A program made the position numbers and the translations under genes. From Candidatus Hadarchaeum sp. (GTDB lineage: Archaea > Hadarchaeota > Hadarchaeia > Hadarchaeales > Hadarchaeaceae), in NCBI GenBank assembly GCA_020725895.1, contig DYTO01000002.1:3966-67965 (forward strand): 64,000 nt of DNA. Reading direction: 5' to 3'. Below the pieces are notes generated by a model. The model was not told where the DNA came from. It ran no database searches and was given only the letters and a program-made list of their open reading frames with translations. Within the stretch, counting starts at the first letter, position 1; each line of letters opens with the position of its first letter. Below are positions 3,998-58,142 of the stretch, piece by piece.

Positions 3998-4819
3998 ATG
4001 GAAGAGTACAACTTCAAGAGATGGTACCCGACATTCTCTCTAGTGAACAAAATTTTCCGAGAGAACGACATCGACCACGTCTTCATCAAGATGCTGCTAG
4101 ACCCCTTCCACATGAGGGACGTCGACGTCATCATCCCGAAGCTCGATGACGAGAAGCGTGCGATAGATCTTCTGAGGAAGGCTGGTTTCCGACCCTACAG
4201 GGCGGGCAAACTCCTCAACCCGTGGAAGATAATCTGCGAGGGGATAGACATCGGGCATCTGGCGGTCGACCTGCACCCGACGGCCGAGTGGAACAGGACG
4301 ATGGTCGCGGACGGGAGGGAGATCAACTCGCACAGGATCGAGGTCAAGATAGGCGACACTAAGGCCTTCCTGCCAATCCCTGAATATTCGCTATACCTGG
4401 TTGCCACGCATTCCTTCTACCAGCACATGACTATTTTGCGCCCCGAGGTGCAGAACGGCATACACTTTATCTCCCAGCCGAAATTCTCGTGGAAGCGACT
4501 CCAGGCGATCGCGAGAGTCTACGGGACTGTCGAGTCGATTTACGCTTTCCTTCTCGCGATAAACGTTGAAAAGCCGAAGACAATCGATGAGATGACGTTG
4601 GGTCTCTTCTCAGGCGGAACGCCGAGTGCGTTGGTACAGAGGTGGTTCGATGAAACTGAAAAGAAGTTCCCGCTTATTATCCCACGCTGGCTCGGCTGCA
4701 TCTTTCCATCATACTACCACACGAAATCCCTGATTGGGAAGGTCAGGCCGACAGAAGTCGCGTTCGATTTTATCTCGCACTACATGAGGCTGTCCAGCGG
4801 AAGGGGTGCTTTCGTTTGA
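3998..4819 (+). CDS. uncharacterised nucleotidyltransferase-like protein (PF14907-like)
   Basis: The N-terminus VFIKMLLDPFHMRDVDVIIPKLDDEKRAIDLLRKAGF fits the KG..L...YP..R...DIDLLV..D...A...L...G(F/Y) signature. Its stop overlaps the next start in an ATGA arrangement. Confidence 0.4.
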   Translation: MEEYNFKRWYPTFSLVNKIFRENDIDHVFIKMLLDPFHMRDVDVIIPKLDDEKRAIDLLRKAGFRPYRAGKLLNPWKIICEGIDIGHLAVDLHPTAEWNRTMVADGREINSHRIEVKIGDTKAFLPIPEYSLYLVATHSFYQHMTILRPEVQNGIHFISQPKFSWKRLQAIARVYGTVESIYAFLLAINVEKPKTIDEMTLGLFSGGTPSALVQRWFDETEKKFPLIIPRWLGCIFPSYYHTKSLIGKVRPTEVAFDFISHYMRLSSGRGAFV

Positions 4820-6899: not shown

Positions 6900-6959
6900 T
6901 TTTTAAATTTCAATTAATTGTGGGCAATGGCAATAATGATCCGAATACTTTCGGTGACC

Positions 6960-7003
6960 CCCCCAAAATGACTTGATTAACTCCGATGTTTTGATTTTGG
7001 GGG
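6960..7003. promoter_or_regulatory. perfect 10-bp inverted repeat CCCCCAAAAT/ATTTTGGGGG with 24-nt spacer immediately upstream of the LAGLIDADG gene start
   Basis: The repeat is seen directly in the sequence. It lies between the yjbQ stop at 6899 and the ATG at 7008. Confidence 0.4.
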
Positions 7004-7007
7004 TTTA

Positions 7008-8015
7008 ATGCGAAAACAAGTCAACAAGGAAATTTTTGGAGAAATACTTCGGAGATATTTCGAAAATCACGAAGGTTCTACAACATTGGCAAAAATGTAT
7101 GGTATCAATAAATCGACCATTCAGAAATGGTTGAGTTTGAAACTACGCAAAGGTGAAGTTCAATTTGTAATGACTCTTAACAATTGGAATCTCGCCAAAT
7201 CGCGCAGACTGGTGTTTAAAAGAGCAGCGGCAGCAAGAGGCGCTAAATCGAGGAAAAAAGTGATGTTGCGATTCGGCAAAAGTTTTGCATATGCGTTGGG
7301 CGTTCTGTGCGGAGATGGGCATGTCGCAGAGGGTTATGCATATCTACCCTGTCATGACATAAAATTTGCTGAATCGTTTTTGGAAAATGGAGAAAAAGCA
7401 TTTGGTATAAAGGCATCTTTTAATCCAGAAAAGAAAATTAGAGGATTGTACCGCGTAACGTTTCATTCAAGGGAATTAGCGGATAGGTTAAACGACTTGT
7501 ATAAGACTAGGACAAGAGAATGGAAAATTCCTCCGGAGATTGTTAATGGCAATAATTTACTGAAAGCGAATTTTCTAAAGGGGTTTGTTGATTCAGAGGG
7601 ACGTGTCGGTCTTTCGGTTTACAAGTGTTATTATACTGTTAAGAGTGGAGAAAAACGCAGCTGTTGGATTTTGCATGGCTACGTTAATTTAAGTTCTGTA
7701 AATGAAAGAGGCATCAAACAAGTACATAAACTTCTAAAAGATTTGGGCATACGCACCAACTTGTATTTTATCGGAAGAAACGACGAGTGGCGCATTTCAA
7801 CAGTAAAAAACAAGTCAAACTTGCTCCTGTTTCAAAAACTCGTTGATTTCAGAACTGCTAGTGATCACGAGAGGCTGAGGTTTTTAAACCAAAACATCAA
7901 TCATTCACCGAATACATGGAGGTGGATAGGCAGTTCGAAGTACTTGCCAAAAAGGTGTAAGGATATGATGCAGCAACAGAGGCCTAGAGGGGTCGTCTAC
8001 TTGGATAGGCAATAA
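7008..8015 (+). CDS. free-standing LAGLIDADG homing-endonuclease-like protein with N-terminal HTH
   Basis: It has two LAGLIDADG motifs, FAYALGVLCGDGHV and LKGFVDSEGRV. The N-terminus TTLAKMYGINKSTIQKWL is HTH-like. The gene is AT-rich relative to its surroundings. Confidence 0.75.
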   Translation: MRKQVNKEIFGEILRRYFENHEGSTTLAKMYGINKSTIQKWLSLKLRKGEVQFVMTLNNWNLAKSRRLVFKRAAAARGAKSRKKVMLRFGKSFAYALGVLCGDGHVAEGYAYLPCHDIKFAESFLENGEKAFGIKASFNPEKKIRGLYRVTFHSRELADRLNDLYKTRTREWKIPPEIVNGNNLLKANFLKGFVDSEGRVGLSVYKCYYTVKSGEKRSCWILHGYVNLSSVNERGIKQVHKLLKDLGIRTNLYFIGRNDEWRISTVKNKSNLLLFQKLVDFRTASDHERLRFLNQNINHSPNTWRWIGSSKYLPKRCKDMMQQQRPRGVVYLDRQ

Positions 8016-21946: not shown

Positions 21947-22043
21947 TGGTGGGCCCGAAGGGATTCGAACCCTTGACCACCCGGTTATGAGCTTCGTCCG
22001 GTTTTCGCCGTCGGACGCTCTAACCTAGCTGAGCTACGGGCCC
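21947..22043 (-). tRNA. tRNA-Met (CAU) candidate with a 19-nt non-canonical intron between positions 30 and 31
   Basis: The minus-strand sequence is GGGCCCG-UA-GCUC AGCUAGGUUA GAGC-G-UCCG[ACGGCGAAAACCGGACGAA]G-CUCAUAA-CCGGG-UGGUC-AAGGG UUCGAAU CCCUU-CGGGCCC-A-CCA. Removing the bracketed segment gives the anticodon stem UCCGG/CCGGG. Confidence 0.6.
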
Positions 22044-22774
22044 TATCGGTTCTATGTTGCCTGCTCTAAAATACGTTTTTGAACGGGTGTAATACCATTT
22101 GTAAAGCTTACCGTTCGATTTTTTTACGTTGGCCTTCAGTGGCGAAAATTCAACGCCCAGAAATTTACGGCTCAATACAATTACTTGGTTGAGAAAACGT
22201 CTATCTTTCTGGACTATTGTTACACACGATCCAGCAACATGTCCATCAGAATCTATTAGGCCGCGCAAGAACTGTTCGAAAAAATCTCGTTTCCACACTA
22301 CTAAAGGAACTTTGAGTTTGCCATATTTGAGATCTATTGGGACGCCCAAACTGACAAAATACGCGTAAATAACTACGCTATCTACTCTCAACTCTAGCCA
22401 ACTTTTATGTTCACGCTCTTGATTATCTTTGGAAAATACAAAAAATTCTTCGCAAAAATGCTCGAAATATGTTTGGCTTGCGCTTTACCCTCAGTTGAGT
22501 TTGGTGCGTAGATTGAGAGCGTATATCTGGCACCGCCACATTTTCTTGGCTGCGGCGTTTTCAAACATCCGTCTCCACAAAGAACACCTAACAAATATGC
22601 AATGTCTCGCGTAACAGAAGGGACGGATATTTTGTTTTTTGATCTTTTAACGACGAATTTGTTATAATCGTCAAGTCTATACTCGATATTCCATTCATTA
22701 AGTAAGTTTATCACATCGTTTTGGTGTTGACTTTGCATATTACCAAGATGAGTTTTTACGTTGGGTTTAAGCAA
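22020..22774 (-). pseudogene. LAGLIDADG homing-endonuclease-like gene disrupted by a frameshift (two ORFs, 126 aa + 123 aa)
   Basis: The upstream ORF carries IAYLLGVLCGDGCL and the downstream ORF carries LRGLIDSDGHV. Together they span 250 codons, the same as the intact paralog at 55745..56497. The downstream ORF is in the +2 frame and overlaps the 5' 24 nt of tRNA-Met. Confidence 0.6.
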
Positions 22775-22846
22775 GTTTCAGGGAGGAGTCACCGAAAGTA
22801 TTCTTAAAAGCCGCGGGTGACGATTAGATTTGGTGGAAATTTGCAT

Positions 22847-24869: not shown

Positions 24870-25024
24870 TGGCGCCGGGGAGAGGACTCGAACCTCTGAC
24901 CTCCTGGTCGCTGCTCACAAGCGCGTCGTACCTTCTGTTGAGGTTCGTTCATCATCCGCGCTTGGTTTTAACAGCCAGGCACGCTACCTACTGCGCCATC
25001 GAGCCGCTTTCGCGGTACCCCGGC
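24870..25024 (-). tRNA. tRNA-Asn (GUU) with two introns: a 19-nt insertion after position 9 and a 60-nt canonical intron after position 37
   Basis: Minus strand: GCCGGGG-UA-[CCGCGAAAGCGGCUCGAUG]-GCGC AGUAGGUA GCGU-G-CCUGG-CUGUUA[60 nt]A-CCAGG-AGGUC-AGAGG UUCGAGU CCUCU-CCCCGGC-G-CCA. The large intron contains GGAUGAUGA, which is box-C-like. Confidence 0.65.
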
Positions 25025-39709: not shown

Positions 39710-40420
39710 GTGGTGGAAAACACGAACAATCTGATACTGCCAAAGAAAGTGACAGTTGATCTTGTGTATCTCATAGGAGTTCTAGCTGGCGACGGCAGCA
39801 TAAATGTTCGGCCAAAACATGATTATGAAATCAAGTGCGTGGGTAATGTCAAGGAAAAAGAATTCTATGATTCGGTGGTTTGCCCGATAATAAAAAATTT
39901 ATTTGACATTGAAGTTAAAGCTAGACTTCATGATTCCGAAACAACTTATGGCATTAGAATCTGGTCGAAGGAGTTAGTTGGTTTTCTCACTGAATTGTTT
40001 GAACTGCCTATCGGTAAGAAATATGCTAAAATAAAAGTTCCCGACAATATCAAGTCTTGCGATAAGTTTTATGTGGCGTTTATTCAGGGCTTGGCAGACA
40101 CAGATTTTTCGTTAACGTTAAAAAGACGGTACAGAAAACAGCAATATTATCCCGTGATTGTTGGAGTTTCGAAAAACAAAAAGTTCATGATAGACATTTC
40201 AAAATATCTGCAAGGCATTGGTTTTTCTATTTCAGAGCACTTTGAAAAAGTTCAGGTTGATAAAAGATTTGGAAAGACGATTACACATGTAATCCAAATG
40301 TATGGCCCCAATCAACTTGCGAAGTGGATGAATACGATTGGATTCAGAAATACAAAACACATCAAAAAATTTGAAATTTGGAAGTCAATAAAAACAATCG
40401 TTGGGCAAAAAGTGCTTTAG
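39710..40420 (+). CDS. free-standing LAGLIDADG homing-endonuclease-like protein
   Basis: Two motifs, LVYLIGVLAGDGSI and FIQGLADTDFSL, in an AT-rich gene. The ORF ends 3 nt from the 3' end of the adjacent tRNA. Confidence 0.75.
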   Translation: MVENTNNLILPKKVTVDLVYLIGVLAGDGSINVRPKHDYEIKCVGNVKEKEFYDSVVCPIIKNLFDIEVKARLHDSETTYGIRIWSKELVGFLTELFELPIGKKYAKIKVPDNIKSCDKFYVAFIQGLADTDFSLTLKRRYRKQQYYPVIVGVSKNKKFMIDISKYLQGIGFSISEHFEKVQVDKRFGKTITHVIQMYGPNQLAKWMNTIGFRNTKHIKKFEIWKSIKTIVGQKVL

Positions 40421-40423
40421 AAT

Positions 40424-40616
40424 TGGTAGCGGGGGGTGGACTTGAACCACCGACTTCCCGCGCCCGCGCTCGACGCACGGACGTCTCCGGGTCTCGCAGG
40501 AGCGCCAAACCCACGGCTTGACGCCTTATGAGCTTCGCCCGTGGTTTCCCACGTCCGGCGGGCACTCCATGCTGCCTTGGGGGCAGAGTAGTTTCCTACG
40601 CTGCTCTACCCCGCTA
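40424..40616 (-). tRNA. long tRNA locus (193 nt) with ~117 nt of intronic sequence; CUCAUAA (Met-like) loop motif present
   Basis: Acceptor AGCGGGG/CCCCGCU, T-arm GGUGG UUCAAGU CCACC, discriminator A and an encoded CCA. The interior contains CGAAGCUCAUAA, as in the tRNA-Met at 21947. The exact splice sites are unresolved. Confidence 0.45.
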
Positions 40617-40718
40617 CAGGTCGTCCTCGCTACCGTAGATTCGATTTATTTTGTGGGATAAATGATTTGCGTTCTTGAAAAATGCGCAGCGAAAACCAGC
40701 CGTATTCGACAGAAATAT

Positions 40719-51946: not shown

Positions 51947-54900
51947 CTAGACTCTCTCCCTCGTCCTTATCTTTGGCATCAGCCCCATGGATTTCATCTC
52001 GTCAACCAAAAGCTTGAACGCGTATGACATTTCCACCTCGTATATCTCGGACTCCTCCTCGCAGAACATGCAAACGGCGCGGTCGTGTCTCCTGTCGTAG
52101 ACGGCGAGGTTGCCGCACTTTCCGCAGACAAGGACTCTGTAGCGGTCGGAAGCGTCGAGTAGCCTCTCCTTCAGGAGCATCGCCGCCCCGTGACCGATTA
52201 TGCAGTCCCTCTCCATCTCCCCGAACCTCAGCCCGCCTTCCCTAGCGCGGCCCTCGGTCGGCTGGTGGGTCAGGACCTGGATCGGCCCGTGCGACCTCGC
52301 GTGGATCTTGTCAGCGACCATGTGGTGAAGCTTCTGGTAGTAGCAGGCGCCTATGAATATTTCAACAGGTATCTTCTCGCCCGTGACCCCGTTGTAAAGC
52401 ACATCCTCCCCGGTGTTCTTGAAGCCGAATTGCTTCAAAATCGCCCTCAGCTCCATCTCCGGAGTGTTGCTGAATGGAGTCCCGTCCATACGCTTGCCGA
52501 TGAACGCCCCGACCTTCCCCGCTATCATCTCCACAAGCATGCCGACGGACATCCTTGACGGGATCGCGTGCGGGTTTATCACGATGTCCGGAACGACCCC
52601 CTCCTCCGTGAAAGGCATGTCGGTGGTGTCCAGCACTATCCCGACGACGCCTTTCTGGCCGTGTCTCGATGCCAGTTTGTCACCTATCTCCGGGATTCTC
52701 TGGTCCCTCACCCGGACTTTTGTGAACAAGTTGCCGTCCAACGTGATCGATTTGAGTATCATGTCTGAGACTCCCTCCTCGCTCGGCCTCACCCTGATTG
52801 AGCTCTCGCGCCGCCCGTGCTCCTTCGCCAGCCCGAACTCGTCCATCTCCTCGAGGAATCTTGGCGGGCTGGTCTTCCCTATCAGGACATCCTCCCCTTT
52901 CACGTCCGTCTCCACCTCGATTATCCCGTCCTCGCCAAGGCTCCTGTATGAGCTGGTTTCCGCGTATCCCCTGATATCTTCTCCAGGCGTCTCAAACTTG
53001 TCCATCTCTCCGCCCGGGTACCTGATTTCCTCCGCCTCGTATATGCGGTAGAATGTCGTCCTACCGAAACCCCGCTCTATCATCGCCTTCTTCACGATGG
53101 CCGCATCTTCCATGTTGTATCCGCCGTAGGCGGAAATCGCGACAATGATGTTTTGTCCGGCCGCCCTCTTGTCGAAGCCGACAGCTTCCATGACCTTTGT
53201 CTTCACGAGCGGGACCTGGGGGTAGTGGAGGAAGTGTCCGCGCGTGTCGACTCTCGAGTGTATGTTGGTGAATGCCAGACCGAGCGCCTGCTTTGCCATA
53301 TTCGCTCCGTAAGTGTTCCTGGGCGACTGGTTGTGCTCGGCGTATGGGACGAGCGCGGTGCTTATCCCCAATATCGCAAGCTGGTGCAACTCGACATGGG
53401 AGTGGTCGCTCGTGATTTCATTCGAGTAGACAGCTATTAGGGCGTTCTCCTCCTCGTCGGGGTCCAGGTACTCGATGACTCCCTGGTTGATCAGGTCTTT
53501 CCAGGCAAGCTCGCCCTTCCTGACCTTTTCTATTATCTCATCGGTCAACTTTGGTTTCATGTTTTCGACCACGATCAGGGGGCGCCTTATCCTCCCTGCA
53601 TCGGTGTTGACCTTCACCTCATCCGTGTCGGCCCTGAACGTGACGTTGACCTGCTCATCGAGGTTCCCCTTTCTCCTGTTCTGGCGTATTTTGTCGGCGA
53701 GCTCTTTCCCGTTTTCAGATATCCCGACCAAACGACCGTTGATGTAAACTGCGGTCTTCCCTTTCCTCTCGCTGCTCTTCATTATCTTAGTGACGCCGAG
53801 CCTGCCGAGAAGTTTCTCGACCCTGCTCTCGTCTGTGCCTATCGAGATTTCGGCCGTTATCGCCAGGTTCTTAACGAGGCCGCAGTTAGGGCCCTCGGGC
53901 GTTTCCGAAGGACAGATCTTGCCCCAGTGCGTCGAGTGCAAGTCCCTGGCCTCGAAGTGTGGCTGGCTTCTGCTCAGCGGCGAGACGACTCTCCTCAGGT
54001 GTGAGACGGTCGCTATATAGTTCGTTCGGTCGAGAAGCTGGCTAACGCCAGTCCTCCCGCCTGGCCAGTTCCCGGTCGCGAGCGCGTGCCTTATCCTCTC
54101 GGTGAGGACGTCCGCGCGGGCAGCCGTCCTGAGGTTCAGCTCCCTGCCTCTCGCGTGTGAGCGCTCGAGCTGGTACTTGATGTCCCTGACGAGGTTCATG
54201 AATGCGAGCCTGAAGACGTTCTCGAGCAGGTCACCGGCGAGCTTTAGCCTCTTGTTGGCGTAGTGGTCCTTGTCATCGGCCCTGCGCCTTCCGAGCGCGA
54301 GGTCTAACACCTGCTCGGACATCCTGCCAAGATAGTAAGCTTTGTTCGGGCGGTCCTTCTGGTCGGTGCCTATGTGCGGGAGCAAATATTTGTCGAGGAC
54401 TTCCTGAGCGCGCTGGAGCCGGTAGTTCCTCGGCTGTCCGATCGCGACGCGTTTCCCGATGAAGTCGAGGGCATCCTGCCTAGTCTTCACCTCTACTGCC
54501 TCTTGCAGGTTCTCGAAGAGCTCTCTAACTATTTCAGGATCATCAGAAACAGCCTCGACTATTTCCCTGTCGCTCTCGAGGCCCAAAGCTCGCACGATCA
54601 CGACCAGCGGGACCTGTCCAGGCACAGCGGGGAATGAGACGCGCAGCAACCCGTCGCGCTTCCTCTCCACGACAACGAATGCGCGGAAGCCCCTGTGGCT
54701 TGAGAATACTTTCGCGACCTCTGTCCCGACGCGCTCGTCCCTCTCGACGAGGATCGCGTTCGAGGCGAGGTCCTCCTGCGCGACGATCACGCGCTCTGAA
54801 CCGTTGACGATGAAGTAGCCGCCCGGGTCGAGGTAGTCCTCGCCGTTGGACATCAGGTCGTCCTCGCTCATGCCGCTCAGCCTGCAAATCTTCGATTTCA

Positions 54901-55249
54901 GCATGACGGGAAGCTCGCCGATGTAGACATCCTCCGGAGGTTGGACCCGGCCGCCGATGTCGAGGCTCATCTCCAAAAAGACCGGCGCCGTGTAGCTCAG
55001 GTTCCTGAGCCGCGCCTCGTGGGGCCAGAGCTTCGGCCTGGAGCCGTCCGCCTCCTTGACAGATGGCTGCTCGAGCCTTATCTTCGCGAATTTCACATCA
55101 ACGCCTTCGATGTCGAGGTCGATCCCGCTTATCTCATCAATGACTTGCTGGAGGCCCCGCTCGACAAAATCGTTATAAGAATCAAGGTGCTGGCGGACGA
55201 GGCCCTTTTCCTTGAAAAAAGATTCAACAATCGGCCAAGTTTCTTGCAT
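51947..55249 (-). CDS. rpoB: DNA-directed RNA polymerase subunit B (fused, unsplit)
   Basis: 1100 aa with both the B'' and B' regions in one ORF. The stop is TAG. Confidence 0.95.
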   Translation of the reverse strand: MQETWPIVESFFKEKGLVRQHLDSYNDFVERGLQQVIDEISGIDLDIEGVDVKFAKIRLEQPSVKEADGSRPKLWPHEARLRNLSYTAPVFLEMSLDIGGRVQPPEDVYIGELPVMLKSKICRLSGMSEDDLMSNGEDYLDPGGYFIVNGSERVIVAQEDLASNAILVERDERVGTEVAKVFSSHRGFRAFVVVERKRDGLLRVSFPAVPGQVPLVVIVRALGLESDREIVEAVSDDPEIVRELFENLQEAVEVKTRQDALDFIGKRVAIGQPRNYRLQRAQEVLDKYLLPHIGTDQKDRPNKAYYLGRMSEQVLDLALGRRRADDKDHYANKRLKLAGDLLENVFRLAFMNLVRDIKYQLERSHARGRELNLRTAARADVLTERIRHALATGNWPGGRTGVSQLLDRTNYIATVSHLRRVVSPLSRSQPHFEARDLHSTHWGKICPSETPEGPNCGLVKNLAITAEISIGTDESRVEKLLGRLGVTKIMKSSERKGKTAVYINGRLVGISENGKELADKIRQNRRKGNLDEQVNVTFRADTDEVKVNTDAGRIRRPLIVVENMKPKLTDEIIEKVRKGELAWKDLINQGVIEYLDPDEEENALIAVYSNEITSDHSHVELHQLAILGISTALVPYAEHNQSPRNTYGANMAKQALGLAFTNIHSRVDTRGHFLHYPQVPLVKTKVMEAVGFDKRAAGQNIIVAISAYGGYNMEDAAIVKKAMIERGFGRTTFYRIYEAEEIRYPGGEMDKFETPGEDIRGYAETSSYRSLGEDGIIEVETDVKGEDVLIGKTSPPRFLEEMDEFGLAKEHGRRESSIRVRPSEEGVSDMILKSITLDGNLFTKVRVRDQRIPEIGDKLASRHGQKGVVGIVLDTTDMPFTEEGVVPDIVINPHAIPSRMSVGMLVEMIAGKVGAFIGKRMDGTPFSNTPEMELRAILKQFGFKNTGEDVLYNGVTGEKIPVEIFIGACYYQKLHHMVADKIHARSHGPIQVLTHQPTEGRAREGGLRFGEMERDCIIGHGAAMLLKERLLDASDRYRVLVCGKCGNLAVYDRRHDRAVCMFCEEESEIYEVEMSYAFKLLVDEMKSMGLMPKIRTRERV

Positions 55250-55588: not shown

Positions 55589-55711
55589 CAAAAAGCGGCT
55601 GTCCTTTTTTGTGTTCGCTATTAACGTTGAAACCGAGGGCTTATAAATACTTTTGATTGGGGGACTTTGAAGTTTTTCGATGTTTTGGATTAGACGGGCA
55701 TAAACATCAGG

Positions 55712-55800
55712 CGCCCTGGCCGAGATTTGAACTCGGGGCAAAGCCTATCTGCGGAAACCGCGACAGGGCTTTATGTTAGACCGGGCTACACCACCAGGGC
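55712..55800 (-). tRNA. tRNA-Asp (GUC) candidate with a ~14-nt canonical intron
   Basis: GCCCUGG-UG-GUGU AGCCCGGUCUA ACAU-A-AAGCC-CUGUCG[CGGUUUCCGCAGAU]A-GGCUU-UGCC-CCGAG UUCAAAU CUCGG-CCAGGGC-G. Confidence 0.6.
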
Positions 55801-56497
55801 ACCATTTCTCTAGATATTTTTCCAACTTAAGACGTTTGTGAGGAATCGCAATCCTCGGCAAAAGATAATTTTTTAGCCAATCGACGTTCTTTTTCGACAC
55901 GACGAATTCTATAGTCCACCAAGAACCCCGGATTATCCTTCCATAGTATACATGACTTTTGCTTTGCCAATACATCGAAACCTTGCAATTCATGTTCATT
56001 TGTATCGCATTTCTCAGCGCATAGTTCGGTTTTCCATTGCTGATCCTTATGCAGCACTGAGGGGTTTTTCTGCTGTACCCCCTGGAGCGGATATCGCCGT
56101 CACCATCAATCACACCTGCCAGATACGTGCCAAACAAAAATGGATTTTGAGAGATCCAAAGTGGGATGGTCATATCGCGAAAACGTATTTCTAAATTTTC
56201 CAGTGGTTCAAGCAAACATTTGACGCTTGTCCCTACTTTGTACCTGCCGTCGGAAAAGCGATGTATTTTCAGCTTTCTTCCCAAGCTAGAATCAAAATTT
56301 TCTGCAAATCTTTCGAGCATGGGCAACGATTTCTCGCCCACGGCAAGTGATATTTCGAAGACGCGAAAATCATTTCCATTCTTCTTGGAGATGTAAGACG
56401 TCCTTTTTCCATCCGAATGCAATGCACCTAGCCAATAAGCCAAATCTGCATTTTTCACCAAGTCCATCTCATTCCCGATCCAAATTCGGAAATTCAT
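55745..56497 (-). CDS. free-standing LAGLIDADG homing-endonuclease-like protein (250 aa)
   Basis: Two motifs, LAYWLGALHSDGKRT and YLAGVIDGDGDI, in an AT-rich gene. The last 18 codons are read from the 5' half of tRNA-Asp. Confidence 0.75.
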   Translation of the reverse strand: MNFRIWIGNEMDLVKNADLAYWLGALHSDGKRTSYISKKNGNDFRVFEISLAVGEKSLPMLERFAENFDSSLGRKLKIHRFSDGRYKVGTSVKCLLEPLENLEIRFRDMTIPLWISQNPFLFGTYLAGVIDGDGDIRSRGYSRKTPQCCIRISNGKPNYALRNAIQMNMNCKVSMYWQSKSHVYYGRIIRGSWWTIEFVVSKKNVDWLKNYLLPRIAIPHKRLKLEKYLEKWCPGGVARSNIKPCRGFRR

Positions 56498-56557
56498 TTA
56501 AGCGGTTTGTCCACACGGGTCGCCGAAAGTAATCTTAGAATAACAGTAAGAAAAGGG

Positions 56558-56674
56558 CCGGCAGCGTATCGGAGTTCCCCATGGCTCGCGCACATGAGTA
56601 CAGTCCAGATCGCATGGCGGGTTTAACTTCCGGGATCGGACGAGACCGGGTGGGACCCCGCCGCTATGACCGCC
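56558..56674 (-). rRNA. rrf: 5S ribosomal RNA (stand-alone, not linked to 16S/23S)
   Basis: The minus strand reads GGCGGUCAUAGCGGCGGGGUCCCACCCGGUCUCGUCCGAUCCCGGAAGUUAAACCCGCC...CGCUGCC. This matches the archaeal 5S consensus, and the ends form helix I. Confidence 0.85.
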
Positions 56675-56719
56675 AACCCAAAATTAATTGAAATTTCTTG
56701 GTTTTATAGATTACCTATA

Positions 56720-58030: not shown

Positions 58031-58142
58031 TGGTCCCGCGGGGGAGATTTGAACTCCCGACATGTCGGTGGCCGCTAAGGATCTACAGCCGACCACTCTA
58101 ACCAGGCTGAGTTTGCGGGGCGGTTTCGCGCCTTACCGCGGG
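58031..58142 (-). tRNA. tRNA-Tyr (GUA) with two introns: a 21-nt insertion after position 9 and a 13-nt canonical intron
   Basis: CCCGCGG-UA-[AGGCGCGAAACCGCCCCGCAA]-ACUC AGCCUGGUUA GAGU-G-GUCGG-CUGUAG[AUCCUUAGCGGCC]A-CCGAC-AUGUC-GGGAG UUCAAAU CUCCC-CCGCGGG-A-CCA. Confidence 0.65.

What the first reader, a model, noticed from the sequence alone, without database searches (positions are those of the whole stretch)
7008..8015. Four distinct free-standing LAGLIDADG endonuclease-like genes in 64 kb, three abutting or overlapping tRNA genes
The genes at 7008-8015, 22020-22774 (frameshifted), 39710-40420 and 55745-56497 each encode two LAGLIDADG motifs. They are mutually divergent, so they are not recent duplicates. 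All are visibly AT-rich relative to the ~55% GC surroundings. None is inside an rRNA intron or an intein. Three sit directly against tRNA genes: tRNA-Met at 21947-22043, the long tRNA at 40424-40616, and tRNA-Asp at 55712-55800. Two of these ORFs terminate inside the tRNA 5' half. The tRNAs in this genome are unusually intron-rich. LAGLIDADG genes parked at tRNA loci may therefore be homing or integrative elements that target tRNA genes. More speculatively, they may be linked to tRNA-intron gain and mobility. One copy, at 7008, carries an extra N-terminal HTH domain.
Basis: partly seen in the sequence, partly recalled or inferred. Interest (0 to 1): 0.7.

Follow-up and report, generated by a model that had tools for sequence, protein, structure and literature searches.

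The report
Homing endonuclease genes parked beside tRNA genes
This Hadesarchaeal genome piece carries four unrelated selfish LAGLIDADG endonuclease genes, three of them butted against the ends of tRNA genes; one of these gene families sits beside tRNA or 5S rRNA genes across many archaea, a niche I found no paper describing.

Summary
Four mutually divergent (27% identity or less), AT-rich, double-motif LAGLIDADG genes lie in a Hadesarchaeal window. G2, G3 and G4 abut tRNA-Met, a probable initiator tRNA and tRNA-Asp.

G4 is an insertion. Five related Hadesarchaea have 5S rRNA and tRNA-Asp about 50 nt apart. This window and one other genome carry a G4-type gene in that spacer.

The association is a property of the G4 family. 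Of 75 metagenomic loci with G4 relatives, 49 (65%) have a tRNA or 5S rRNA gene starting at or within about 50 nt of the gene's 3' end. Thirty distant viral LAGLIDADG loci have none. G2 relatives (3 of 3) and G3 relatives (2 of 2) keep the same tRNA partner, some in different genomic contexts.

Two loci keep a 17-23 nt copy of the tRNA end on the far side of the cassette. This suggests cleavage inside the tRNA gene.

No integrase, att repeats or intron structure were found. Introns are not enriched in partner tRNAs.

G1 (7008-8015) has an HTH domain, is not tRNA-linked and keeps its synteny in relatives.

Best reading: free-standing homing endonuclease genes that target stable-RNA genes, analogous to phage T4 SegB. 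This is a new variant of a known kind.

A shared 45-nt upstream module remains unexplained.

The parts
7008..8015 (+). G1: 335-aa free-standing LAGLIDADG gene with an N-terminal HTH-like helical domain. It lies between a UPF0047 gene and an RNase H-like exonuclease gene and is not tRNA-linked.
   Evidence: ORF. Pfam LAGLIDADG_3 33.4 bits, weak HTH hits. Model pLDDT 80, matching I-Tsp061I, I-DmoI, intein endonuclease domains and WhiA. Orthologues of 57-61% identity at the same synteny, also AT-rich. Neighbours identified.
6933..6980 (+). Shared upstream module of G1. Core ACTTTCGGTGAC at 6947-6958, then a C-rich run, AAA and CTTGATTAA.
22020..22774 (-). G2: LAGLIDADG gene split by a frameshift near 22,400 into ORFs 22774-22394 and 22391-22020. 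It reads into tRNA-Met and stops in the D-loop.
   Evidence: Homologues of 48-62% identity lie directly 5' of tRNA-Met in L091, L092 and L205.
22775..22815 (-). Shared upstream module of G2 (core 22799-22788).
21947..22043 (-). tRNA-Met (CAU) with an intron of about 19 nt in the anticodon stem and an encoded CCA. Partner of G2.
   Evidence: Rfam tRNA 52 bits. ARAGORN returns tRNA-Met(CAT) once 18-20 nt starting at about position 30 are removed.
39710..40420 (+). G3: 236-aa LAGLIDADG gene. Its 3' end faces the 3' end of the long CAU tRNA (convergent orientation).
   Evidence: Family profile hits I-DmoI and 2dch. Homologues of 61-71% identity are convergent with the orthologous tRNA in L093 and L094, with different outer flanks.
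40424..40616 (-). tRNA of about 193 nt with A1, a CUCAUAA anticodon loop, CCA and several intervening segments. Probable initiator tRNA-Met. Partner of G3.
   Evidence: Read from sequence. Rfam sees only the 3' acceptor and T arm (18 bits, E 0.34, below threshold). ARAGORN calls the L094 orthologue a tRNA with a 92-nt intron.
55745..56497 (-). G4: LAGLIDADG gene of about 232 aa (plus 18 tRNA-encoded codons) inserted in the 5S rRNA|tRNA-Asp spacer. Its stop codon lies in the tRNA-Asp intron.
   Evidence: Model pLDDT 93.8, matching I-OnuI, PI-PfuI and E-DreI. Empty sites in L004, L006, L007, L009 and L057; occupied site in L083.
56498..56555 (-). Spacer after the 5S rRNA, holding the shared upstream module of G4 (core 56530-56519).
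56556..56677 (-). 5S rRNA gene, the upstream neighbour of G4.
   Evidence: Rfam 80 bits.
55710..55800 (-). tRNA-Asp (GUC) with a canonical intron. Partner of G4.
   Evidence: ARAGORN. Orthologues in relatives.

Best explanation
G2, G3 and G4 are free-standing LAGLIDADG homing endonuclease genes. Each is a cassette of about 0.75 kb holding one gene. G2 and G4 also carry the shared upstream module. G3 has only a TATA-like box of its own. Their niche is the DNA immediately outside the end of a stable-RNA gene.

The 3' end of the endonuclease gene always faces the RNA gene. It sits either upstream on the same strand (G2 with tRNA-Met, G4 with tRNA-Asp) or convergent with the tRNA 3' end (G3 with the probable initiator tRNA).

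Inferred mechanism: the enzyme cuts the highly conserved tRNA gene of a genome that lacks the cassette, about 17-23 bp in from the end that faces the cassette. Repair from a cassette-bearing copy then carries the gene in along with the adjoining tRNA end. Sitting outside the mature RNA means no intron or intein is needed. The open reading frames simply run on into the tRNA until a chance stop codon.

Copies then decay, as with the G2 frameshift. G1 is a fourth, HTH-bearing free-standing LAGLIDADG gene at a protein-gene site. Its target is unknown.

Shown: endonuclease identity and fold, foreign composition, insertion polymorphism for G4, and family-wide association with RNA-gene ends. Inferred: cleavage, its position, and homing itself.
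For: Identity and fold. The catalytic acidic residues are invariant in the family alignments.

Foreign composition, in the window and in every relative examined.

Insertion polymorphism: 5S and tRNA-Asp are about 47-52 nt apart in L004, L007, L009 and L057, and about 45 nt apart by my reading in L006. The spacer is 755 nt with G4 in the window. L083 (identical L084) carries a 59%-identical gene at the same site.

Family-wide association: of 75 metagenomic loci with room downstream, 41 have an ARAGORN tRNA starting within -30 to +80 nt of the homology end. Rfam adds 5 tRNAs and 3 5S rRNA genes. That gives 49 of 75, of which 15 are same-strand and 34 convergent. After collapsing obvious duplicates this is about 44 of 69.

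Control: 0 tRNAs in 30 loci around distant viral LAGLIDADG genes.

The partner RNA clusters with endonuclease relatedness: 17 of 49 nearest neighbours share a partner, against 2.6 expected and a maximum of 9 in 2000 trials.

G2 relatives sit 5' of tRNA-Met in two different contexts: the DHH neighbour, and the RpiA/MFS neighbours. G3 relatives sit beside the same tRNA with different outer flanks.

Fossils: a 17-nt intronless copy of the tRNA-Met 5' end lies upstream of the L091 cassette. A 23-nt imperfect copy of the tRNA-His 3' end lies upstream of the L124 cassette.

Decay: the G2 frameshift and truncated P0015 in L085.
Against: Empty sites were shown only for G4, and the relatives are distant (RpoB about 71-77% identical). 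Exact insertion boundaries are therefore uncertain, and multiple losses cannot be told from gains.

26 of 75 family loci show no adjacent RNA gene with these detectors. Two of seven ARAGORN calls rechecked with Rfam did not reach Rfam's threshold (L118, L128).

The tRNA sequences of cassette-bearing and empty tRNA-Asp alleles look alike, so how a carrier avoids cutting itself is unexplained.

Only two fossil repeats were found among about 55 loci.

Orthologues of 57-62% identity at fixed sites, and an upstream module shared with a DUF763 host gene, would also fit long-resident or domesticated genes.

GC-poor composition persists over that divergence. It may therefore reflect the family's Lys/Asn/Ile-rich sequence rather than recent transfer.
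Confidence: 0.7

Rival explanations
1. Domesticated LAGLIDADG proteins with a host function, such as WhiA-like DNA-binding regulators or maturase-like RNA factors. On this view they are kept next to tRNA genes because they are co-expressed with them or act on them.
For: G1 combines an HTH with the LAGLIDADG scaffold, and its model also matches WhiA. G1 and G2 orthologues of 57-62% identity keep their synteny. Three unrelated genes share one upstream module that also precedes a DUF763 host gene. This suggests integration into host regulation.
Against: The catalytic acidic residues of both motifs are invariant in all four families, unlike in WhiA (my own knowledge). Five relatives lack G4 at an otherwise conserved site. 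G2 is frameshifted and P0015 is truncated. Composition is strongly non-host. Partner tRNAs differ between clades of one family. That fits target switching by a selfish gene better than one conserved host role. The G1 family is tiny: 3 representatives at E <= 1e-30 among 1.84 billion.
Confidence: 0.13
2. The genes belong to, or descend from, archaeal bulge-helix-bulge (or group I) introns of tRNA genes. On this view they mark intron gain and mobility.
For: Known archaeal LAGLIDADG enzymes are intron- or intein-encoded. Partner tRNAs in the window all carry introns. In L091 and L092 the partner tRNA-Met has an extra intron after position 9, within the stretch that the 17-nt fossil suggests is targeted. 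The window copy lacks that intron and its G2 is dead.
Against: All cassettes lie outside the mature tRNA. The G1, G2 and G4 cassettes carry their own TATA-like box and upstream module. Rfam finds no group I intron in the window at its thresholds. In L205 a 44-nt spacer with a TATA box separates the gene from the tRNA. Introns are not enriched in partner tRNAs (24 of 42 against 32 of 42). Intron-free tRNAs such as His, Val and Arg are frequent partners.
Confidence: 0.05
3. Remnants of integrase-mediated integrative elements or proviruses that used tRNA genes as attachment sites.
For: tRNA genes are classical integration sites. Short tRNA-end copies flank two cassettes.
Against: The AT-rich insert is a single ORF of about 0.75 kb with host genes on both sides. 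There is no integrase. No att-like direct repeats or terminal inverted repeats flank the window cassettes. Many cassettes sit at the tRNA 5' end. Integrase att sites usually lie in the 3' half (my own knowledge).
Confidence: 0.03

Closest known systems
Phage T4 SegB (free-standing GIY-YIG homing endonuclease in the T4 tRNA gene cluster; PMC2330249)
   Same: It is a free-standing endonuclease gene lodged among tRNA genes. Its 27-bp site contains an 11-bp conserved tRNA T-arm motif. It spreads together with the flanking tRNA DNA into relatives that lack it. The 23-nt fossil in L124 also ends in the T-arm.
   Different: It belongs to a different enzyme family (GIY-YIG, not LAGLIDADG) and sits in a phage genome, not an archaeal chromosome. 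Here a whole family occupies the exact ends of many different tRNA and 5S genes in two fixed orientations. Activity has not been tested here.
Archaeal intron- and intein-encoded LAGLIDADG endonucleases (I-DmoI, I-Tsp061I, PI-PfuI, VMA-intein endonuclease domains)
   Same: Same fold and same double-motif monomer architecture with conserved acidic residues. They also use highly conserved stable-RNA or housekeeping genes as targets.
   Different: Those enzymes sit inside rRNA introns or inteins and depend on splicing. The genes here are free-standing, sit outside the mature RNA, and G1, G2 and G4 carry their own upstream module.
WhiA (LAGLIDADG scaffold plus HTH transcription factor)
   Same: G1 joins an HTH-like domain to a LAGLIDADG core, and its model matches WhiA structures.
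   Different: The HTH of G1 is N-terminal. Both catalytic acidic residues are invariant in its family. WhiA has a C-terminal HTH and has lost them (my own knowledge).
Free-standing LAGLIDADG ORFs in organelle genomes
   Same: Intergenic LAGLIDADG genes, sometimes fused to or overlapping neighbouring genes (reviews found).
   Different: Those are in organelle genomes, and the papers I retrieved report no systematic positioning at tRNA termini. I did not analyse them here.

Membership tests
LAGLIDADG homing endonuclease, monomeric double-motif type | Two LAGLIDADG motifs, each with the metal-binding acidic residue | tested here: met
   The motifs were read in all four genes. The acidic residues are invariant in the family alignments A1, A3, A4 and A5. 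In G3 the second motif is degenerate (GLADTDF).
LAGLIDADG homing endonuclease, monomeric double-motif type | Significant match to curated family models or to solved members | tested here: met
   Pfam LAGLIDADG_3 is above its cut-off for G1 (33.4 bits) and G2b (28.3 bits). G3 (19.5 bits) and G4 (16.5 bits) are below it singly. Profiles of all four families hit I-DmoI, I-Tsp061I, PI-PfuI or PI-SceI in the PDB.
LAGLIDADG homing endonuclease, monomeric double-motif type | Duplicated alpha-beta-beta-alpha-beta-beta-alpha fold | tested here: met
   G1 model pLDDT 80, with TM 0.64-0.70 relative to I-Tsp061I and I-DmoI. G4 model pLDDT 93.8, pTM 0.90, with I-OnuI, PI-PfuI and E-DreI as top hits. G2 and G3 were not modelled.
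LAGLIDADG homing endonuclease, monomeric double-motif type | Site-specific double-strand cleavage of a site of about 20 bp | not testable with these tools
   This needs purified protein and substrate DNA.
Mobile (homing) genetic element | Presence/absence polymorphism at one homologous site among relatives | tested here: met
   Met for G4 only: five empty and two occupied 5S|tRNA-Asp sites. Not tested for G1, G2 or G3, because no cassette-free orthologous loci could be fetched.
Mobile (homing) genetic element | Same gene family at the same kind of target in unrelated genomic contexts | tested here: met
   G4 family: 49 of 75 loci at tRNA or 5S ends. G2 in DHH and RpiA contexts. G3 with different outer flanks.
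Mobile (homing) genetic element | Biased transmission into cassette-free alleles | not testable with these tools
   This needs genetics or population data.
Intron- or intein-encoded endonuclease | ORF embedded in a group I or bulge-helix-bulge intron, or in-frame in an intein | tested here: not met
   The ORFs lie outside the mature RNAs. G1, G2 and G4 have their own upstream module. There are no host extein sequences and no group I intron hit.
tRNA-integrating element (integrase type) | Integrase gene and tRNA-derived att direct repeats bounding the element | tested here: not met
   Each insert is a single ORF and no significant flanking repeats are present. Short tRNA-end copies are seen only in L091 and L124.
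Seg-type free-standing endonucleases of T-even phages | GIY-YIG catalytic domain, phage genome | tested here: not met
   The genes have LAGLIDADG domains and lie among archaeal chromosomal genes (RNA polymerase operon, 5S rRNA). The resemblance is functional only.
WhiA-like regulators | Loss of catalytic residues and a C-terminal HTH | tested here: not met
   G1 keeps D117 and E197 invariant, and its HTH-like domain is N-terminal.

The most novel reading that the evidence does not exclude
An arms race between these endonucleases and their tRNA targets shapes archaeal tRNA genes.

On this reading the cassette travels with a resistant version of the tRNA end. Resistance comes from sequence variants, as in L124, or from a non-canonical intron placed inside the recognition site. 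An example is the intron after position 9 of tRNA-Met in L091 and L092. It is absent from the intronless 17-nt fossil, and from the window copy whose endonuclease is dead.

Homing endonucleases would then be a direct selective driver of non-canonical tRNA introns. This would give concrete form to the idea that disrupted tRNA genes protect against mobile elements (an idea I recall from the literature; not retrieved here).

In addition, the shared 45-nt upstream module would mark a common repressor-controlled regulon of the endonuclease genes.
Probability: 0.15. Interest if true: 0.85.

Novelty: new variant of a known kind. Interest (0 to 1): 0.68.

Why it matters
Archaeal LAGLIDADG enzymes are known from rRNA introns and inteins. 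A lineage that needs neither, because it parks just outside the ends of tRNA and 5S rRNA genes, would be a distinct and apparently widespread lifestyle for selfish endonucleases in archaeal chromosomes. I found no description of it in six literature searches.

It offers several things:
- A set of natural meganucleases with predictable targets (tRNA gene ends) and many specificities.
- An explanation for ORFs that 'overlap' tRNA genes in archaeal annotations, and for some AT-rich islets.
- A testable route by which mobile elements could select for sequence variants or introns in tRNA genes.

Tried and rejected
1. Exact look-up of the window's own proteins in the contig index found nothing, so contexts had to come from homologues.

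2. An integrase or att model was rejected. Repeat searches around all four cassettes gave only short, chance-level repeats.

3. An intron origin was rejected. Rfam finds no group I intron in the window, and there is no intron enrichment in partner tRNAs.

4. I considered that the shared upstream module is simply the local tRNA promoter. This is unlikely. It also precedes G1 and a DUF763 gene, neither of which has a tRNA. It travels with G2 into a different context (L205). It is absent from other tRNA genes of the window. Weak similarities between the G4 leader and the empty spacers of L007 and L057 could not be evaluated.

5. I tested whether the C-rich part of the module pairs with the ribosome-binding region. 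It does in the minimum-energy folds of G1, L001 and L205, but not in the other copies. This is inconclusive.

6. Viral-contig scans for the G2 and G3 families gave nothing, or only relatives of at most 33% identity. I used these as a negative control.

7. Rfam confirmation of the long CAU tRNA gave only a sub-threshold 3'-half match. Its identity rests on reading the sequence and on orthologues.

8. A search for further tRNA-end fossils found only L124, besides L091 seen by eye.

Full report
WHAT IS THERE

The window comes from a Hadesarchaeal (Hadarchaeota) genome. Its unsplit RpoB (51947-55249, minus strand) is 71-77% identical to RpoB of nine Hadesarchaea MAG contigs. It is at most 61% identical to anything else among the 80 loci returned from 185,579 species genomes.

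Four ORFs with two LAGLIDADG motifs each are present at the reported coordinates. I call them G1 (7008-8015, plus strand), G2 (22774-22020, minus), G3 (39710-40420, plus) and G4 (56497-55745, minus). A six-frame motif scan finds no other copy in the window.

G2 is broken by a frameshift near position 22,400.

Family assignment:
- Pfam LAGLIDADG_3 passes its cut-off for G1 and the second half of G2. G3 and G4 are sub-threshold singly.
- Profiles built from each gene's relatives hit solved LAGLIDADG enzymes: I-DmoI, I-Tsp061I, PI-PfuI, PI-SceI and VMA-intein endonuclease domains.
- AlphaFold models of G1 (pLDDT 80) and G4 (pLDDT 93.8, pTM 0.90) superpose on two-domain meganucleases.
- The metal-binding acidic residue of each motif is invariant in all four family alignments.

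The four genes are at most 27% identical to each other.

They are extreme compositional outliers. Their GC is 0.36-0.42 and GC3 is 0.38-0.48. For 36 host ORFs GC is 0.569 +/- 0.023 and GC3 is 0.759 +/- 0.060, with the lowest host GC3 at 0.571.

THE RNA NEIGHBOURS

G2 runs into a 97-nt tRNA at 22043-21947 (minus strand). ARAGORN mistypes this tRNA. It becomes tRNA-Met(CAU) once an intron of about 19 nt in the anticodon stem is removed. The G2 stop codon lies in the D-loop.

G4 lies between a 5S rRNA gene (56677-56556) and tRNA-Asp (55800-55710), all on the minus strand. Its stop codon is in the tRNA-Asp intron.

G3 is convergent with a CAU tRNA of about 193 nt on the minus strand (40616-40424). 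That tRNA starts AGCGGGG, ends CCA and holds several intervening segments, so it is probably the initiator tRNA. Rfam recognises only its 3' part, below threshold.

G1 has no RNA neighbour. It lies between a UPF0047 gene and an RNase H-like exonuclease gene.

IS G4 AN INSERTION?

In five Hadesarchaeal relatives, 5S rRNA and tRNA-Asp are separated by only about 45-52 nt. These are L004, L006, L007, L009 and L057. Each short spacer holds a 5S terminator and a TATA-like box. No LAGLIDADG gene lies anywhere in those loci.

In the window the same spacer is 755 nt and consists of G4.

A second genome (L083, GCA_964446015.1; L084 is an identical stretch on a Logan contig from a sequencing run) carries a 59%-identical gene in the same spacer. 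Gene callers there read it straight through the tRNA.

This patchy occupation of one site, combined with foreign composition, is the signature expected of a homing-type element. The relatives are distant, so gain and loss cannot be polarised rigorously.

IS THE tRNA ASSOCIATION MORE THAN CHANCE?

More distant G4 relatives (51-53% identity) sit 8 nt upstream of tRNA-Glu (L088). One truncated copy sits upstream of tRNA-Glu in L085.

I then scanned JGI metagenomes with an alignment of 42 family members and obtained 80 loci.

Results for the 75 loci with at least 90 nt of sequence downstream:
- 41 have an ARAGORN tRNA starting between -30 and +80 nt of the end of the protein match.
- Rfam adds five tRNAs that ARAGORN missed and three 5S rRNA genes.
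- The total is 49 of 75 (65%). Collapsing obvious duplicate contigs gives about 44 of 69.
- In all 49 it is the 3' end of the endonuclease gene that faces the RNA gene. In 15 the tRNA follows on the same strand. In 34 the RNA gene is convergent.
- The ORFs frequently continue into the RNA gene before meeting a stop codon.
- L112 repeats the window's order exactly (5S, then the gene, then tRNA-Asp) in a very different, AT-rich organism.

As a control, the same ARAGORN settings found no tRNA at all in 30 loci (about 155 kb) around distant viral LAGLIDADG genes.

Of seven ARAGORN calls rechecked with Rfam, five reached the gathering score.

The partner RNA tracks endonuclease relatedness. Seventeen of 49 nearest neighbours have the same partner and orientation, against 2.6 expected by chance. 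The partner also changes between clades: Arg, His, Val, Pro, Glu/Asp, Gly, Leu and 5S all occur. This fits lineage-specific targets with occasional switching.

G2 AND G3

G2 relatives of 58-62% identity (L091, L092) share the divergent DHH-family neighbour. They sit directly 5' of the orthologous tRNA-Met.

A 48%-identical relative in a different context (ribose-5-phosphate isomerase and MFS transporter neighbours, L205) lies 44 nt upstream of a tRNA-Met(CAU).

G3 relatives of 61-71% identity (L093, L094) are again convergent with the orthologous multi-intron CAU tRNA. Their outer flanks differ from those in the window.

All of these relatives are GC-poor relative to their loci.

HOW IT PROBABLY WORKS

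Two loci preserve what look like scars of invasion.

In L091 a perfect 17-nt copy of the intronless tRNA-Met 5' end (GGGCCCGTAGCTCAGCT) lies upstream of the cassette. It is preceded by a TATA-like box at the right distance for a tRNA promoter. The functional tRNA follows the cassette.

In L124 a 23-nt imperfect copy of the tRNA-His 3' end lies upstream of the cassette, and the functional convergent tRNA follows it.

This is what a break 17-23 bp inside the tRNA gene would leave if it were repaired by copying from a carrier on the tRNA side and joined without homology on the far side. I therefore infer that the enzymes cut inside the tRNA gene, near the end that faces the cassette, and that the cassette is co-converted with that tRNA end.

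This mirrors phage T4 SegB. SegB is a free-standing GIY-YIG endonuclease in the T4 tRNA cluster, and its recognition site includes the conserved T-arm motif (PMC2330249).

Cleavage, its position and homing are all inferences. How carriers escape self-cleavage is open, because carrier and empty tRNA-Asp alleles look alike at the 5' end.

ALTERNATIVES

Integrase-type integration is rejected. Each insert is one ORF between host genes, and no att-like or terminal repeats bound the window cassettes.

An intron origin, or a link to intron gain, is not supported:
- The genes lie outside the mature tRNAs.
- The G1, G2 and G4 cassettes have their own upstream module.
- No group I intron is detected.
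- Introns are no commoner in partner tRNAs (24 of 42) than in other tRNAs of the same loci (32 of 42).

One suggestive detail remains. In L091 and L092, which have intact endonucleases, tRNA-Met carries an extra intron after position 9, inside the presumed target. The window's tRNA-Met lacks that intron and its G2 is dead. With three loci this is only a lead.

Domestication cannot be excluded, especially for G1. In its favour are conserved synteny in L001 and L002 at 57% identity, the HTH domain and the structural resemblance to WhiA. Against it are invariant catalytic residues, non-host composition in every relative and a tiny family. Only 3 representatives reach E <= 1e-30 among 1.84 billion proteins.

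AN UNEXPLAINED EXTRA

The only three exact matches to ACTTTCGGYGAC in the 64-kb window lie 25-60 nt upstream of G1, G2 and G4, on their strands.

The conserved stretch of about 45 nt consists of a TATA-like box, then (G)AWTACTTTCGGYGMCC, a C/T-rich run, AAA and CTTAA.

It recurs upstream of the genes' relatives in L001, L083, L091, L092 and L205, which lie in different contexts. It occurs once upstream of a DUF763 gene in L009. A profile of it finds nothing else in the window or in any fetched locus.

It may be an operator shared by these genes, or a promoter module that travels with them. I could not decide.

NOVELTY

Free-standing homing endonuclease genes and LAGLIDADG enzymes are both well known. 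Six full-text searches found no description of archaeal LAGLIDADG genes positioned at tRNA or 5S gene ends. The nearest items were intron-encoded enzymes in bacterial tRNA introns (PMC13011429) and in archaeal rRNA group I introns (PMC6125680).

I rate this a new variant of a known kind.

VERDICT

Its core interpretation, homing elements at tRNA genes, is supported. The integrative and intron-gain extensions are not supported, and G1 is not part of the tRNA pattern.

Noticed in passing
window 6933-6980 (+), 22815-22775 (-), 56555-56498 (-); L001:248-334, L083:3911-3996, L091:2906-2994, L092:2915-2996, L205:~2930-2990, L009:1589-1677: A module of about 45 nt (TATA-like box, ACTTTCGGYGMCC, C/T-rich run, AAA, CTTAA) is shared by the upstream regions of three unrelated LAGLIDADG genes and their relatives, and once by a DUF763 gene. 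It occurs nowhere else in the window or the fetched loci.
   Followed up: partly
L091:2887-2903 and L124:696-718: Short copies of the partner tRNA's end lie on the far side of the endonuclease cassette: 17 nt of the tRNA-Met 5' end, and 23 nt of the tRNA-His 3' end. They may be scars that mark the cleavage position.
   Followed up: partly
L091:3700-3824 and L092:3704-3826 compared with window 22043-21947: tRNA-Met has an extra intron after position 9 in the two genomes whose G2-type gene is intact. The window, where G2 is frameshifted, lacks that intron.
   Followed up: partly
window 24881-24998 (-) and 58034-58119 (-): Two further over-long Rfam tRNA hits (118 and 86 nt) that ARAGORN misses. 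They probably contain introns, and neither has a LAGLIDADG neighbour.
   Followed up: no
window 40617-40640 (-) and L094 (~1040-1075): A partial repeat of the initiator-like tRNA's 5' end (TAGCGAGGA or TAGCGGGGTA) lies just upstream of the tRNA.
   Followed up: no
L007:4725-5651 and L009:3215-5040: In relatives, unrelated genes are inserted between tRNA-Asp and tRNA-Lys. L007 has a membrane-protein fragment there and L009 has a 367-aa secreted protein. This stable-RNA cluster is therefore a general hot spot for insertions.
   Followed up: partly
L006:~1315-1345 and L083:~4703-4732: tRNA-Asp carries a D-loop intron in one genome without the cassette (L006) and in one with it (L083). The window and L004, L007 and L057 lack this intron.
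   Followed up: no
L097:1708-1825, L102:3089-3205, L123:1948-2064: Some G4-family genes abut the end of a 5S rRNA gene (convergent) instead of a tRNA.
   Followed up: partly
window 22775-22830: The start of the divergent DHH-family gene (22817, plus strand) lies only about 18 nt from the G2 upstream module. The two genes must therefore share a very short bidirectional promoter region, or the DHH start is mis-set.
   Followed up: no
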